Assembly: GCA_963733935.1 (NCBI GenBank)
Contig: CAVTEQ010000018.1
Coordinates: 52,942-116,941 of the forward strand
Reading direction: 5' to 3'
Length of the DNA: 64,000 nt
From: an uncultured Acidobacteriota bacterium
Lineage (GTDB): Bacteria; Acidobacteriota; Terriglobia; Terriglobales; Acidobacteriaceae
Shown here: piece after piece, positions 21,382-25,337 of the stretch
Layout of the letters: every line of letters begins with the position of its first letter
Numbering within the stretch: position 1 is the first letter of the stretch
Notes under the pieces: model-generated
What the model was told of the DNA's origin: nothing
Database searches by the model: none
Seen by the model: the letters and a program-made list of their open reading frames with translations, nothing else
Program-made: the position numbers and the translations under genes

Positions 21382-21621
21382 TCAGCGGTTTTCCAACCTT
21401 CTCCCGTGCCGCAGGCGGCGCACGTATCTGGTGGAATCGGAAGGGTCAGAGTGGTCCTTTCTTATGCCCGCCAGAGCCTGCATAGCCTCTGCGCTCCTCC
21501 AGGCTGCCGAAATAGCGCTCACTTGCCGGACCAGGTCGGAGACGGTAGTCCCCTCGTTGCGGGCACGTGCGCGCAGGGCATTCCACAAGTCGTCGTCCAG
21601 ATAAAGCTGCGTGCGTCGCAT
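21382..21621 (-). CDS. Ribbon-helix-helix (CopG/VapB-like) antitoxin-type protein, no adjacent toxin
   Basis: MRRTQLYLDDDLWNALRARARNEGTTVSDLVRQ is an N-terminal RHH pattern. No PIN or other toxin ORF lies downstream. Confidence 0.65.
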   Translation of the reverse strand: MRRTQLYLDDDLWNALRARARNEGTTVSDLVRQVSAISAAWRSAEAMQALAGIRKDHSDPSDSTRYVRRLRHGRRLENR

Positions 21622-22250: not shown

Positions 22251-22901
22251 ATGCGTAGCGGGACCCTTCGACGCAGTCTTGTGTTGGGATCACTCCTTGC
22301 CGCGCTGGCGACCACAGCCGAAGCCCAGAAGGCCGGCGCCGTGGACGCAGTGCGGCCGCAAGCCATCATTCAGCGCGGCACCGCCCAACTCTCGGCCGAG
22401 AAGGGAACCAGCGTGAGCTGGGATGATCTGCTGCACACCGACACCCAGGGCAGATTGCGCGTCCAGTTGCTGGACCAGTCATTAATCACGTTGGGCGCGG
22501 ATTCGCAGGTACGGGTGATTCGCCAGGCTCCATCTTCCGACCAGAGCTCGCTGGAGCTGGCCTACGGCAAGATCCGCATGCGTCTGGTGAAGCAACCGCA
22601 GCGATTCGAACTGCGCACGGCGACGGCGGTTGCGGGCGTGATCGGCACCGACTTCGGCGCTGACGCCTCCGTCCCCGGCACCACTCACTTCATCTGCCTG
22701 GAAGGGGAAGTGAGGATCTCAAGCTCCGATCCAGACATTCACGGGAGCGTGATCTGCAAAGGCGGCTACATGACCGACGTCAAGGCCGGCCAGCCGCCCG
22801 CAGAGCCCACTCCGGCCACCGCGGAACACATGGAGAACTGGCGGCGGAACAACGAACCGGAGAGCGAAAAGGAAGCCACGGATCACACGGATCACCACTG
22901 A
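22251..22901 (+). CDS. Secreted FecR-domain protein
   Basis: ATG 22251 with GGGAGG upstream, signal peptide MRSGTLRRSLVLGSLLAALATTAEAQ, and the LRVQLLDQSLITLGADSQVRV...TATAVAGVIGTDF pattern. Confidence 0.7.
   Translation: MRSGTLRRSLVLGSLLAALATTAEAQKAGAVDAVRPQAIIQRGTAQLSAEKGTSVSWDDLLHTDTQGRLRVQLLDQSLITLGADSQVRVIRQAPSSDQSSLELAYGKIRMRLVKQPQRFELRTATAVAGVIGTDFGADASVPGTTHFICLEGEVRISSSDPDIHGSVICKGGYMTDVKAGQPPAEPTPATAEHMENWRRNNEPESEKEATDHTDHH
22872..22901. repeat. Direct repeat copy 1 (W7 arm, CACGGATCA word) bounding the hicAB cassette
   Basis: gaagccacggatcacacggatcaccactga. 29/30 identical to 23375-23404. Confidence 0.85.
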
Positions 22902-22910
22902 TCTGGCGAG

Positions 22911-23138
22911 CTACAGGTATTTTCTAAAATCATCGATATCGACCTTAGCCAGTTTGAGAATACCCCTCAGTGTCCCGGGCGCTAGCTCCGCGTGCAGCGG
23001 AACGACACAGCCTACGTCGCCAGCAGGCGTGCGCTTCTTGAGAATTACGTGACTGCCTCGCTGCCTGACCTGAACGAACCCCAGCCGTTCGAGTGCGCGT
23101 ATTGCCGCCGCGCCGGATACGCGCGGCAGCCTAGGCAT
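22911..23138 (-). CDS. hicA: HicA-family toxin (mRNA interferase)
   Basis: MPRLPRVSGAAAIRALERLGFVQVRQRGSHVILKK is the YcfA/HicA signature. It overlaps hicB by 8 nt. Confidence 0.85.
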   Translation of the reverse strand: MPRLPRVSGAAAIRALERLGFVQVRQRGSHVILKKRTPAGDVGCVVPLHAELAPGTLRGILKLAKVDIDDFRKYL

Positions 23139-23340
23139 ACTTTGCCTCGAACGTGGTCATCATCGGATGTCCAACGTCGGGCAACGGGAATTCTTCGAGG
23201 TAGAGTTCAGTGGCTTCTTTCAGATTGGCAATTGCCTCTTCGACTGTCGGGCCTTGGCTTACGGTGCCAACTTCTGGGCACTCGGCTACATAGAGGCTGC
23301 CTTCTCTGTGCAAAACGGCAGTGAGGGTACGGACTGGCAT
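23131..23340 (-). CDS. hicB: HicB-family antitoxin
   Basis: MPVRTLTAVLHREGSLYVAECPEVGTVSQGPTVEEAIANLKEATELYLEE. The track ORF extends to 23382, inside a repeat. Confidence 0.8.
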   Translation of the reverse strand: MPVRTLTAVLHREGSLYVAECPEVGTVSQGPTVEEAIANLKEATELYLEEFPLPDVGHPMMTTFEAKYA

Positions 23341-23374
23341 ACGGCAGTATTCTAGCCACAACTTGACTCGAAGC

Positions 23375-23440
23375 GAAGCCACGGATCACACGGATCATCA
23401 CTGACCAAACAATCCGTGATTATCCGCGCCAATCCGTGGC
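23375..23440. repeat. Direct repeat copy 2 plus the complementary arm (complete W7 hairpin)
   Basis: gaagccacggatcacacggatcatcactga ... atccgtgattatccgcgccaatccgtggc. Confidence 0.85.
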
Positions 23441-23445
23441 GTTCT

Positions 23446-25242
23446 TCAGGACGTTGTGTACTTTCCCACCTCGATTACCCGCTGCGCGATCTGCTGGCGC
23501 AGCGCAATCGTATTGAAGGGCTCGTACTTGGAGAGGCGCTTCAGGATCGCCAGTTGCGTGCGCAGCATGTCACCGTCGGCGATGGCGGTGATCACCTTGC
23601 GCGCGGAGGTCTCGATCTTCTCCAGCGCGTGCTGCAAGTAGACGCGGGCCATCGCGACCGGCAGACTGGCGGCCGATTCGCCCTGGCGCTCGATCAGCTT
23701 CTGTGCGCGCAGCACGGCTGATTCCGCGGCGTAGCTTTCGATCACGATGTCGGCCAGCGCCCCCATGATCTCCTGCTGGTCGACGAGCTGCTGCATGTAC
23801 TTCTGCGAAGCTGCGCCGGAGGCGAACAGCGCGATCTTCTTGGCGTTCGCGACCATGGCGCGCTCGGCGGCCAGCGTGCCTTCCGGGCCTTCGCTCATCG
23901 ACGGACCGGAGAGCACTTCGTCCATCAGCTTCTTGATCGCCGGCAGCAACGGAATCTGCCCGCTCATCGCCCGCTTCAGCAGCCAGCCAGTGATGATCAG
24001 GCGGTTGATCTCGTTGGTGCCTTCGAAGATGCGGTTCACGCGGGCGTCGCGATAGGCGCGCTCGGCGGGATACTCCTCGACGAAGCCGTAGCCGCCGTAA
24101 ATCTGCACCGTCTCGTCCACCACCATGTCCACCATCTCCGAGCCCCAAACTTTCAGGATGGAGCACTCGACCGCGTATTCCTCGATGGACTTGCGGATCT
24201 CGGTGGCGGCGCTGGCGCTCGATTTATCGATCTCGGAGAGCGCCACGTCGATCATGCCGATGGTGCGGTACACCATGGCTTCGCCGGTGAACACGCCCAC
24301 CGCCATGTCGGCCAGCTTCTCGCGGACCAGGCCGAAATCGGCAATCACTTTGCCGAAAGCCTTGCGCTGCTTGGCGTATTCGATGGCCGCCTGCAGCGAA
24401 TTGCGCGCGCCTCCCACGCAACTGGCGCCTAGCTTGAAGCGGCCGACGTTGAGAATGTTGAAGGCGATGATGTGTCCTTTGCCGATCTCGCCCAGCAGGT
24501 TCTCCGCCGGCACCTTGCAGTCGGTGAAGATCAGCGGACAGGTGGACGATCCGCGGATGCCCATCTTGTGCTCTTCCGCGCCGATCGCAAATCCGGGGAA
24601 GTTTTTCTCGACCAAGAATGCCGTGAACTTCTCACCGTCGACTTTGGCGAAGACGGTGAACAGGTCGGCGAAGCCTGCGTTGGTGATCCACATCTTCTCG
24701 CCGTTCAGGATGTAGTGCCTGCCATCGGGTGAGAGCTGGGCGCGGGCGCGGCAGTTGAGCGCGTCCGAGCCGGAAGAGGATTCCGAAAGCGCGTAGGCGC
24801 CGACGATCTCGCCCGCCGCCAGCCGCGGCAGATACTTCTTCTTTTGTTCCGCCGTGCCGAAATAAACGATAGGCAGTGTGCCGATGCCGGTGTGCGCGCC
24901 CCAGGTGGTGGCGAAGCCGGCGTACTTCGAGATCTTGTCGGCGATGATGCAGGACGTGACCTTGTCCATGTCGGTGCCGCCGTAGGCCTCGGGGATGTCC
25001 ACGGAAGTCAGGCCCAGGTCGCTGGCCTTCTTGATCAGTTCGCGGGCGACCGGCCATTCCTTATGTTCGAGCTTGTCGGCGGCGGGCACGATCTCGTTGG
25101 TGGCAAACTCGTCCGCCGTCTTGGCGATCTGCAGGTGCTCTTCGCTGAAATCTTCGGGCGTGAAAACGTCGTTAGGAGTGCGTTCTTCCAGCAAGAAACT
25201 GCCGCCGGTGATTCGGATTTTGGGGACTGCTACTGTAGCCAT
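23446..25242 (-). CDS. Long acyl-CoA dehydrogenase
   Basis: Acyl-CoA dehydrogenase N, middle and C domains (ALSESSSGSDA..., QIYGGYGFVEEYPAERAYRDARVNRIFEGTNEI). I chose ATG 25242 (GAGGA SD) because 25269 lies inside a hairpin repeat. Confidence 0.93.
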   Translation of the reverse strand: MATVAVPKIRITGGSFLLEERTPNDVFTPEDFSEEHLQIAKTADEFATNEIVPAADKLEHKEWPVARELIKKASDLGLTSVDIPEAYGGTDMDKVTSCIIADKISKYAGFATTWGAHTGIGTLPIVYFGTAEQKKKYLPRLAAGEIVGAYALSESSSGSDALNCRARAQLSPDGRHYILNGEKMWITNAGFADLFTVFAKVDGEKFTAFLVEKNFPGFAIGAEEHKMGIRGSSTCPLIFTDCKVPAENLLGEIGKGHIIAFNILNVGRFKLGASCVGGARNSLQAAIEYAKQRKAFGKVIADFGLVREKLADMAVGVFTGEAMVYRTIGMIDVALSEIDKSSASAATEIRKSIEEYAVECSILKVWGSEMVDMVVDETVQIYGGYGFVEEYPAERAYRDARVNRIFEGTNEINRLIITGWLLKRAMSGQIPLLPAIKKLMDEVLSGPSMSEGPEGTLAAERAMVANAKKIALFASGAASQKYMQQLVDQQEIMGALADIVIESYAAESAVLRAQKLIERQGESAASLPVAMARVYLQHALEKIETSARKVITAIADGDMLRTQLAILKRLSKYEPFNTIALRQQIAQRVIEVGKYTTS

Positions 25243-25264
25243 AAGATCCTCGCTTAGGAAATCT

Positions 25265-25331
25265 GCCACGGAGACACTGAGGCACAGAGAATACTAAACA
25301 AAAATACTCCGTGTCTCGGTGCCTCGGTGGC
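25265..25331. repeat. Word-hairpin family W2
   Basis: gccacggagacactgaggcacagag opposes ctccgtgtctcggtgcctcggtggc, between the acyl-CoA dehydrogenase and thiolase genes. Confidence 0.85.
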
Positions 25332-25337
25332 GAAATC

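What the first reader, a model, noticed from the sequence alone, without database searches (positions are those of the whole stretch)
22872..23440. hicAB cassette bounded by a 30-bp direct duplication of a hairpin-repeat arm
GAAGCCACGGATCACACGGATCA(C/T)CACTGA occurs at 22872-22901 and again at 23375-23404, with 29/30 identity. The 473 bp between the two copies contains only hicA (22911-23138) and hicB (23131-23340). The second copy is followed by its complementary arm (23412-23440), so it forms a complete word-hairpin. The first copy supplies the last codons and the stop of the FecR-domain gene (..ATDHTDHH*). The simplest reading is that the toxin-antitoxin module was inserted into a pre-existing hairpin and one arm was duplicated. 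This would make the hairpin repeats integration or recombination hotspots for small cassettes. No integrase or transposase is adjacent.
Basis: seen in the sequence. Interest (0 to 1): 0.6.

Follow-up and report, generated by a model that had tools for sequence, protein, structure and literature searches.

The report
hicBA inserted into a shared hairpin
A small toxin-antitoxin gene pair was inserted into the DNA hairpin shared by two converging genes of a soil Acidobacterium, copying one hairpin arm so that both neighbours stayed intact; relatives still carry the empty site, and the event fits a known kind, "insertion with long target duplication".

Summary
A 30-nt direct repeat (29/30 identical, found nowhere else in the genome) brackets 473 bp that hold only hicB and hicA.

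Copy 1 is the native end of the FecR-domain gene (..ATDHTDHH*). Copy 2 is the left arm of the hairpin that starts 5 nt after the stop of the converging acyl-CoA dehydrogenase (ACAD) gene.

Five metagenomic relatives have FecR, a single hairpin and ACAD, with the FecR stop at the top of the left arm. One further contig (L085) has hicAB at the same place. One congener (G002) keeps only a deletion scar of it.

So hicBA was inserted into an existing hairpin and one whole arm was duplicated.

The junction is hypervariable: at least 8 different right-hand neighbours follow the FecR stop in close relatives, and FecR 3' remnants of 69 and 115 nt lie beside the hairpin in other genomes. In G003 the duplicated copies, and in L085 the copy-1 tail and the flanks, come from different allele lineages, so these junction variants move by recombination.

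No recombinase gene, terminal inverted repeats or fixed duplication length were found.

The closest known kind is insertion with long target duplication, described for restriction-modification modules.

The wider claim that hairpin repeats are cassette hotspots is not shown.

The parts
22251..22901 (+). FecR-domain gene with a signal-peptide-like N-terminus. Its last nine codons and the TGA stop are built from CACGGAT words.
   Evidence: PF04773, E=9e-16. The ATG at 22251 is inferred from orthologue starts. A homologous tail, A/P-T/P-D-H..H-H/Q-H*, is present in the orthologues examined (e.g. G001, G002, G006, G007; variant in G003), including those not next to a hairpin.
22872..22901 (+). Direct repeat copy 1. 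This is the native 3' end of FecR, which was the left hairpin arm of the ancestral empty site.
   Evidence: In empty sites such as L076 the same sequence is followed directly by the loop, the right arm and the ACAD stop.
22902..23374 (-). Inserted segment of 473 bp. Its GC content is 56.7% against a genome mean of 61.4%. GC3 is 0.59-0.63 against 0.78-0.85 in the neighbouring genes.
   Evidence: Composition. The segment is absent from five empty-site contigs. It aligns over positions 9-473 to L085 (79% identity). It aligns over positions 5-463 to a second context in G007:C108 (82.5% identity).
22911..23138 (-). hicA toxin gene, 75 aa, with the RGSH motif present.
   Evidence: PF07927, E=1.5e-16. 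Orthologues: 85% identity in L085; about 86-88% over aligned segments in G007 and G008, where the match is split over two frames as by a frameshift.
23131..23340 (-). hicB-like antitoxin gene, 69 aa. It has the N-terminal domain only and overlaps hicA by 8 nt.
   Evidence: Weak HicB_lk_antitox, UPF0150 and DUF7387 matches below cut-off. It is 91% identical in L085 and conserved in G007 and G008.
23349..23354 (-). TAGAAT, a possible -10 box 8 nt upstream of the hicB ATG, which would suggest a leaderless transcript. This is an inference only.
   Evidence: Read from the sequence. TAGAAT or TACAAT stands at the same place in G007, G008, L085 and G023. The consensus scan found no sigma-70 site.
23375..23404 (+). 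Direct repeat copy 2, which is the left arm of the hairpin. It consists of three words, CACGGAT-CA-CACGGAT-CAT-CACTGA, preceded by GAAGC.
23405..23411 (.). Hairpin loop (CCAAACA).
23412..23446 (+). Right arm of the hairpin (ATCCGTGATT ATCCGCGCCA ATCCGTGGC) plus an outer CTTC. It ends at the ACAD stop codon.
   Evidence: (inverted repeat I2). An orthologous hairpin follows ACAD in G003, G005, G006 and G007, with a shortened version in G002.
23446..25269 (-). Acyl-CoA dehydrogenase gene, the last gene of a fadB-thiolase-ACAD operon, converging on FecR.
   Evidence: PF00441, PF02771, PF02770 and PF21263.

Best explanation
Shown: in the ancestral arrangement the FecR-domain gene and the ACAD gene converged on one palindromic CACGGAT-word hairpin. 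The left arm encoded the last nine FecR codons, with the stop codon lying in the third word (CACTGAT). The right arm ended 4-5 nt from the ACAD stop.

Shown: a roughly 460-bp hicB-hicA addiction module was then inserted, and the whole left arm (30 nt, from stem base to loop) was duplicated. Copy 1 keeps the FecR C-terminus and stop. Copy 2 together with the right arm keeps the complete hairpin behind ACAD.

Shown: this matches the pattern called insertion with long target duplication. The insert carries no recombinase gene and no terminal inverted repeats. The repeat is single-copy in the empty site and unique in the genome.

Inferred: the first event was break repair or illegitimate joining at or near the palindrome. 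Candidate routes are a staggered break with fill-in, a template switch at the stalled hairpin, or one-sided homologous plus illegitimate recombination. Only products that preserved both overlapping functions, the FecR end and the ACAD hairpin, would have survived.

Shown in part: afterwards the occupied allele, like the other alleles of this junction, moved between lineages by homologous recombination in the conserved flanks. It is also lost by deletion.
For: 1. Five empty-site contigs exist (L069, L076, L078, L086, L089). An example is L076..GCCACGGATCACACGGATCATCAC TGA CC GTGATGATCCGTGCCAATCCGCGGC TTTC TTA (ACAD stop). The single copy in L076 is 28/30 identical to copy 1 and 29/30 to copy 2.

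2. L085 has the same occupied site, with hicA 85% and hicB 91% identical.

3. G002 keeps the last 11 hicA codons, the hicB upstream stretch and a shortened copy 2, which is a deletion scar of the same insertion.

4. The repeat runs from within 3 nt of the stem base to the top of the stem.

5. The hairpin is orthologous behind ACAD in G003, G005, G006 and G007. In G003, G006 and G007 its left arm continues into 115 or 69 nt of FecR 3' pseudo-sequence, a fossil of the FecR-hairpin-ACAD arrangement.

6. The insert has lower GC and GC3 than its neighbours.

7. No mobility gene lies in or beside the insert.

8. Mosaicism supports spread by recombination. In the FecR tree built without the tail columns, the three hicAB-state rows fall in three separate clades. 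L085 groups with the empty sites L069 and L078 (support 100/100). The body of G003's FecR groups with empty-type alleles while its tail is amidohydrolase-type (with the tails).

9. The known precedent is restriction-modification modules inserted with 30-400-bp target duplications and no mobility genes, some overlapping gene 3' ends (PMC2853133).
Against: The joining mechanism is not shown. The junction sequences are too diverged (79-82% identity to the other hicBA copies) to read microhomology reliably.

The two window copies are still 29/30 identical, although the same insertion in L085 and G002 has decayed copies. That requires gene conversion, selection on both copies, or a more recent arrival in this lineage.

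The hicBA module also lies between the thiolase gene and another gene (here called p238) in G007 and G008. The order of events among insertion, loss of ACAD and the inversion relative to G001 is unresolved.

Empty sites could in principle arise by exact excision between the repeats, so an empty site is not proof of the ancestral state in every lineage.

The hairpin has no U-tract, so its assumed terminator role is untested.
Confidence: 0.72

Rival explanations
1. Hairpin-directed cassette capture. On this view the CACGGAT-type word hairpins are recognised by a trans-acting enzyme, for example the small GxxExxY PD-(D/E)XK nuclease whose genes are bracketed by such arms. That enzyme would cut at the loop and at the stem base. 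Foreign DNA would then be joined in with a duplication exactly one arm long, making the hairpins true integration sites.
For: The repeat coincides with one arm to within 3 nt at each end. In this genome three GxxExxY genes (PF13366) and five 23S_rRNA_IVP genes (PF05635) each lie between inverted three-word arms. The junction has at least 8 different right-hand neighbours in close relatives. A RES/Xre toxin-antitoxin pair also lies next to a CACGGAT hairpin at C18:185026-187036.
Against: The other duplications at the same junction are 69 and 115 nt, not one arm. In G003 the duplicated copies, and in L085 the copy-1 tail and the flanks, come from different allele lineages. No other solo arm plus full hairpin pair was found among the CACGGAT arms or in a genome-wide search for local direct repeats. 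The other eight hicA loci have no strong hairpin within 3 kb. Selection to keep both the FecR end and the hairpin explains an arm-length minimum equally well.
Confidence: 0.12
2. Campbell-type integration. A circularised or linear fragment from a related lineage already carried the FecR tail joined to hicA-hicB. It recombined through the short arm homology, or through the FecR 3' end with an illegitimate join on the other side. The repeat would then be the homology segment, not a target duplication made on the spot.
For: G003 shows exactly this pattern with other cargo, an M19 dipeptidase gene plus an amidohydrolase gene. Its intact FecR has the amidohydrolase-type tail (CACATGGATCATCACCAATAA). 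The 115-nt remnant beside the hairpin is of the empty-site type, nearly identical to L086. In L085, copy 1 resembles the L076-type tail, while the hairpin and the FecR body are L069-like.
Against: This explains spread but not origin. Some first event must still have joined hicA to a FecR tail while a full hairpin was kept beside ACAD. In the window the two copies differ by only one base, so no donor and recipient can be told apart.
Confidence: 0.1
3. Two-step origin. Slippage between the tandem 9-10-nt words first made a tandem duplication of the arm. An unrelated insertion later landed between the two copies.
For: The arm is made of tandem words, which are prone to slippage. Lengths vary among relatives: there is a 12-nt deletion in G002 copy 2 and a deletion in L085 copy 1.
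Against: None of the 40-plus related junctions examined shows a tandem arm duplication without an insert. The idea needs two events at exactly the same point.
Confidence: 0.04
4. There was no insertion: hicBA was always downstream of ACAD, and FecR was brought next to it by the inversion seen between genomes.
For: hicBA also follows the beta-oxidation operon in G007 and G008. G000 and G001 differ by an inversion with one breakpoint at this junction.
Against: This cannot explain why the FecR tail is 29/30 identical to the hairpin arm. It also cannot explain the FecR remnants contiguous with the hairpin in G003, G006 and G007, or the empty sites in which the FecR tail is itself the arm.
Confidence: 0.02

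Closest known systems
Insertion with long target duplication of addiction modules (Nobusato et al. 2000, cited from my own knowledge; Furuta, Abe and Kobayashi 2010, PMC2853133)
   Same: A small addiction module with no mobility gene is inserted between direct repeats of 30 bp or more. The repeats are single-copy in the empty genome and unique in the genome. The repeat can overlap the 3' end of a gene. The insert has deviant GC content. The duplication length varies between events at this junction (30, 69 and 115 nt).
   Different: The cargo is a type II toxin-antitoxin pair, not a restriction-modification system. The target is one arm of a palindromic repeat element shared by two converging genes. 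At 30 nt the repeat sits at the lower limit used in that paper.
REP/BIME elements as preferred targets of insertion sequences and as rearrangement join-points (Tobes and Pareja 2006, PMC1525189)
   Same: An intergenic palindromic repeat is the place where foreign DNA enters and where synteny breaks.
   Different: The inserted DNA is not an IS and carries no transposase. The three RAYT-like genes of this genome are flanked by a different REP (GGCACGAC..GTCGTGCC), not by CACGGAT words.
HicAB type II toxin-antitoxin modules
   Same: The HicA domain with its GSH motif is present. A small HicB-like gene overlaps it. The gene order is hicB then hicA. The distribution is patchy, with copies disrupted by a frameshift-like break or deleted in relatives.
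   Different: The antitoxin is only 69 aa, has no recognisable DNA-binding domain and scores below the Pfam cut-offs. Its activity is untested.
Word-armed elements that enclose small genes (23S rRNA intervening-sequence protein PF05635; GxxExxY PF13366)
   Same: These use the same kind of three-word inverted arms in the same genome, enclosing one small gene.
   Different: There the cargo lies between the two inverted arms. Here the cargo lies between two direct copies of one arm, with a complete hairpin kept at one end.

Membership tests
HicAB type II toxin-antitoxin | A HicA toxin domain (PF07927) above the curated cut-off | tested here: met
   E=1.5e-16, 60.7 bits against a cut-off of 27. 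The RGSH motif is present.
HicAB type II toxin-antitoxin | An adjacent HicB antitoxin (partial RNase H-like fold, usually with a DNA-binding domain) | tested here: inconclusive
   The 69-aa protein overlaps hicA by 8 nt. It has only sub-threshold matches to HicB_lk_antitox, UPF0150 and DUF7387 (E about 2-3e-3). No DNA-binding domain was detected.
HicAB type II toxin-antitoxin | Toxicity of HicA and its neutralisation by HicB | not testable with these tools
   This needs expression in a laboratory strain.
Insertion with long target duplication | The insert is absent from a related genome whose flanks align on both sides | tested here: met
   Five contigs have FecR and ACAD separated by a single hairpin.
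Insertion with long target duplication | Both repeat copies align to one single-copy sequence in the empty site | tested here: met
   The single copy of L076 is 28/30 and 29/30 identical to copies 1 and 2. The other empty sites are 25-27/30 identical.
Insertion with long target duplication | A repeat of 30 bp or more that is not a dispersed repeat | tested here: met
   The repeat is 30 nt, with no third copy at up to 6 mismatches. The arm matches only its own duplicate in BLAST. This is borderline on length.
Insertion with long target duplication | No transposase or integrase gene and no terminal inverted repeats in the insert | tested here: met
   Only hicA and hicB are present. Only a weak CGAG match appears at the two ends, read from the sequence.
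REP/REPIN-RAYT system | RAYT (Y1 transposase) genes flanked by the same repeat | tested here: not met
   The three RAYT-like loci are flanked by GGCACGAC..GTCGTGCC hairpins. No CACGGAT or related words lie within 500 nt of them.
IS or transposon insertion | A transposase, terminal inverted repeats and a short target duplication of fixed length | tested here: not met
   There is no transposase. The duplication is 30 nt here, and 69 and 115 nt for other events at the same junction.
Integron cassette | An attC site at the 3' end of the cassette and an IntI integrase with attI nearby | not tested
   No recombinase gene lies among the nine neighbouring genes. attC models and a genome-wide IntI search were not run.

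The most novel reading that the evidence does not exclude
The tandem-word hairpins of this genome may be actively broken, for example by the GxxExxY nuclease whose genes they bracket. The break geometry (loop plus stem base) would then make them entry gates where addiction modules and other DNA are captured with a duplication one arm long. That would be a hairpin-guided, transposase-free route of gene gain, and it would explain why this junction has eight or more alternative neighbours.
Probability: 0.12. Interest if true: 0.7.

Novelty: new member of a known kind. Interest (0 to 1): 0.4.

Why it matters
This is a clean natural example with the empty site, the occupied site and a deletion scar all available. 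It shows how a toxin-antitoxin module can enter a chromosome without any recombinase gene of its own.

It also shows what happens when two functions overlap on the same DNA, here a gene's last codons and a neighbour's 3' hairpin. Only insertions that duplicate the shared piece are kept, which produces a long target duplication.

It extends the pattern described for restriction-modification modules to a type II TA module and to Acidobacteriota. It identifies one palindromic repeat as a junction where gene order is reshuffled repeatedly among close relatives.

Whether the hairpin causes the instability or merely marks a permissive site remains open, and it can be tested.

Tried and rejected
- **RAYT link rejected:** the Y1 transposase-like genes of G000 (C18:7543, C15:84581, C3:199945) are flanked by a different REP, so the CACGGAT hairpins are not their REPs.
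- **Other cassettes with a duplicated arm:** BLAST of all 82 CACGGAT arm arrays against the genome gave only this pair as a nearby direct duplicate.
- **Genome-wide local repeats:** a 14-mer search for local direct repeats found near-identical whole hairpins or arms flanking single housekeeping genes (a fabI-like gene, glnB, rpsF-rpsR, htpX). It found no other solo arm plus cassette.
- **General hicA-hairpin association:** none of the other eight hicA loci has a strong hairpin within 3 kb. My ungapped hairpin finder also missed the bulged hairpin studied here, so this negative result is weak.
- **Promoter and terminator scan:** no sigma-70 consensus site and no canonical terminator was found at the hairpin.
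- **Rfam:** no RNA family matched 22700-23600.
- **Microhomology at the junctions:** I tried to read it against the G007 and G008 copies of the module. Divergence is too high, and those copies may themselves derive from a window-like arrangement.
- **Order of events:** I did not resolve the full order of the inversion and of the ACAD loss among G001, G006, G007 and G008.

Full report
**Observation.** The 30-nt repeat is real. It lies at 22872-22901 and 23375-23404 and is 29/30 identical. The 4.67-Mb genome has no third copy at up to 6 mismatches. The window is C18:52942-116941 of an uncultured Acidobacteriota genome; named relatives include Terriglobales MAGs.

The genome contains about 40 hairpins whose arms are three tandem CACGGAT words. 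Many of these arms are 90% or more alike. This arm, however, is a divergent member that matches only its own duplicate. The pair is therefore a local duplication.

Between the copies lie hicA and hicB. hicA is at 22911-23138 on the minus strand (PF07927, E=1.5e-16). hicB is a 69-aa gene at 23131-23340 on the minus strand, with sub-threshold HicB-like matches, and overlaps hicA by 8 nt.

Copy 2, a 7-nt loop and 23412-23440 form a stem-loop. Its free energy is -43.4 kcal/mol on the minus strand (z=-4.5). It starts 5 nt after the stop of the acyl-CoA dehydrogenase (ACAD) gene. Copy 1 supplies the final codons ATDHTDHH and the stop of the FecR-domain gene.

**What the two copies are.** FecR orthologues in five congeneric genomes all end in a homologous tail (A/P-T/P-D-H..H-H/Q-H*). 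This holds even where no hairpin follows. Copy 1 is therefore native coding sequence.

The hairpin directly behind ACAD is also conserved in position in G003, G005, G006 and G007, and is shortened in G002. In G003 its left arm runs on upstream into about 115 nt of FecR 3' pseudo-sequence with an in-frame TGA. In G006 and G007 it runs into about 69 nt. These are fossils of an arrangement in which the FecR tail itself was the left arm.

**The empty site exists.** A metagenome scan with FecR returned 39 loci. Five of them (L069, L076, L078, L086, L089) have FecR and ACAD separated by one hairpin only. An example is L076..GCCACGGATCACACGGATCATCAC TGA CC GTGATGATCCGTGCCAATCCGCGGC TTTC TTA.

The single copy in L076 is 28/30 identical to copy 1 and 29/30 to copy 2. 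The stop codon lies in the third word of the arm, where CACTGAT replaces CACGGAT.

L085 carries hicA (85% identical) and hicB (91%) at the same place, with the same right-hand junction (..GAAGCGAAGC-). Its copy 1 has decayed.

G002 retains the last 11 hicA codons, the stretch upstream of hicB and a copy 2 that lacks 12 nt. This is a scar left by an internal deletion of the same insertion.

The insert is lower in GC than the genome (56.7% against 61.4%). Its GC3 is 0.59-0.63, against 0.78-0.85 in the flanking genes.

**The junction is hypervariable.** To the left of FecR, the DUF2911 gene is present in every contig that reaches that far. To the right of the FecR stop, relatives carry one of the following:
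- ACAD directly (the empty site);
- hicAB followed by ACAD;
- the thiolase gene, with ACAD missing but the hairpin kept in some contigs (5 contigs);
- an amidohydrolase gene (6 contigs plus G003);
- a SpoIIAA-like gene (10 contigs plus G001, G006 and G007);
- a CDF transporter gene;
- a methyltransferase gene;
- other DNA (L058);
- a cluster of other REP-type repeats (L093).

In G005, FecR is absent and the hairpin abuts the DUF2911 promoter.

G000 and G001 differ by an inversion. Its breakpoints are FecR|ACAD and the junction between the SpoIIAA-like gene and a gene I call p238. Those two genes are adjacent in G000 at C3:206319-207328. In G001 the FecR and ACAD loci lie about 107 kb apart.

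The hicBA module is also found between the thiolase gene and p238 in G007 and G008. There the match covers insert positions 5-463 at 82.5% identity, and the hicA match is split over two frames, as by a frameshift.

**How the variants move.** I built a FecR tree with the tail columns left out. The three hicAB-state rows fall in three separate clades. L085 groups with the empty sites L069 and L078 (support 100/100). G003's FecR body groups with the empty-type alleles (100/99), although its tail is the amidohydrolase-type CACATGGATCATCACCAATAA.

The 115-nt remnant of G003 is nearly identical to the FecR end of L086. In G003 the two copies therefore come from different allele lineages. In L085 the copy-1 tail is L076-like, whereas the hairpin and the FecR body are L069-like. 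This is what recombination between arrangement variants produces: homologous on one side, illegitimate or short-homology on the other. It is not what a transposase-type target duplication produces.

**Mechanism.** What is shown:
- the hicBA module was inserted into an existing hairpin;
- the duplication is exactly one arm long, to within about 3 nt;
- the insert has no recombinase gene and no terminal inverted repeats.

What is inferred:
- The first event was break repair or illegitimate joining at the palindrome. The possibilities are a staggered break with fill-in, a template switch at the hairpin, or one-sided homologous recombination.
- Only products that duplicated the arm could survive, because the FecR end and the ACAD hairpin overlap. 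This also accounts for the longer 69- and 115-nt duplications.

I could not decide among the joining routes.

**Comparison with known systems.** The pattern meets the criteria of insertion with long target duplication, described for restriction-modification addiction modules (PMC2853133). Those criteria are a repeat of 30 bp or more, single-copy in the empty genome, unique in the genome, and an insert with no mobility gene. That paper also reports repeats overlapping gene 3' ends.

REPs are known as IS targets and rearrangement points (PMC1525189). The hairpins here are not the REPs of this genome's RAYT-like genes.

In this genome, three GxxExxY genes and five 23S-IVS-protein genes each lie between inverted three-word arms. 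I followed this lead from earlier notes of the scan and confirmed it here. That architecture differs from the hicBA case, which has direct copies of one arm.

Tests of the wider hotspot idea were negative or weak. No second solo-arm cassette was found. No strong hairpin lies near the other eight hicA loci.

**Verdict.** The insertion reading is supported by the predicted empty site. The general hotspot claim is not established. This is a new member of a known kind and is of moderate interest.

Noticed in passing
window 25270-25337: The spacer between the thiolase and ACAD genes holds another word hairpin of the CAC(C/G)GAG type: GCCACCGAGGCACCGAGACACGGAG .. CTCTGTGCCTCAGTGTCTCCGTGGC. In relatives that have FecR next to the thiolase gene (L066, L072), and in G007 and G008, half of this hairpin remains where ACAD is missing. 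ACAD, which is bounded by two hairpins, has therefore been lost several times.
   Followed up: partly
window 21382-21621: A 79-aa RHH (CopG/VapB-like) gene lies between the DUF2911 and Zn-ribbon genes. In G005 those two genes are only about 80 nt apart with no RHH gene. This looks like a second small antitoxin-type insertion close by.
   Followed up: partly
G000 C15:493717-494064, C3:274599-274946, C14:730945-731282; C5:295587-295904, C14:937754-938071, C6:317982-318296, C5:31518-31781, C6:386616-386807 (outside the window): Three GxxExxY (PF13366) genes and five 23S_rRNA_IVP (PF05635) genes are each bracketed by inverted arms of three tandem words. A different word family is used at each locus.
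   Followed up: partly
G000 C14:312600-313560, C5:390300-390830, C6:227037-228110, C5:26885-28010 (outside the window): Near-identical whole word hairpins flank single housekeeping genes in direct orientation: a fabI-like gene, glnB, rpsF-rpsR and htpX. Neighbouring hairpins are more alike than distant family members, which suggests local copying or homogenisation.
   Followed up: partly
G000 C18:185026-187036 (outside the window): A DUF2384/Xre-RES toxin-antitoxin pair lies between nfeD and its SPFH partner gene. Two similar CACGGAT hairpins frame the TA pair plus the SPFH gene. The 24 nt before each hairpin are also alike (19/24).
   Followed up: partly
L041 (G001:C2:464001-467906): The ACAD orthologue of G001 is split over three reading frames. 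This is either a pseudogene or indel errors of the assembly. No hairpin follows it.
   Followed up: no
L093 1950-2265: In one metagenomic relative the hairpin between FecR and ACAD is replaced by about 320 nt of other repeat elements, including the TCATCCCGAGCG-type inverted repeat. Only a short FecR fragment was detected on that contig.
   Followed up: no
G000 C3:199600-200700 (outside the window): A RAYT-like gene sits inside a dense array of GGCACGAC..GTCGTGCC hairpins and about 49-nt tandem units. This looks like a classical REP/RAYT locus, separate from the word-hairpin families.
   Followed up: no
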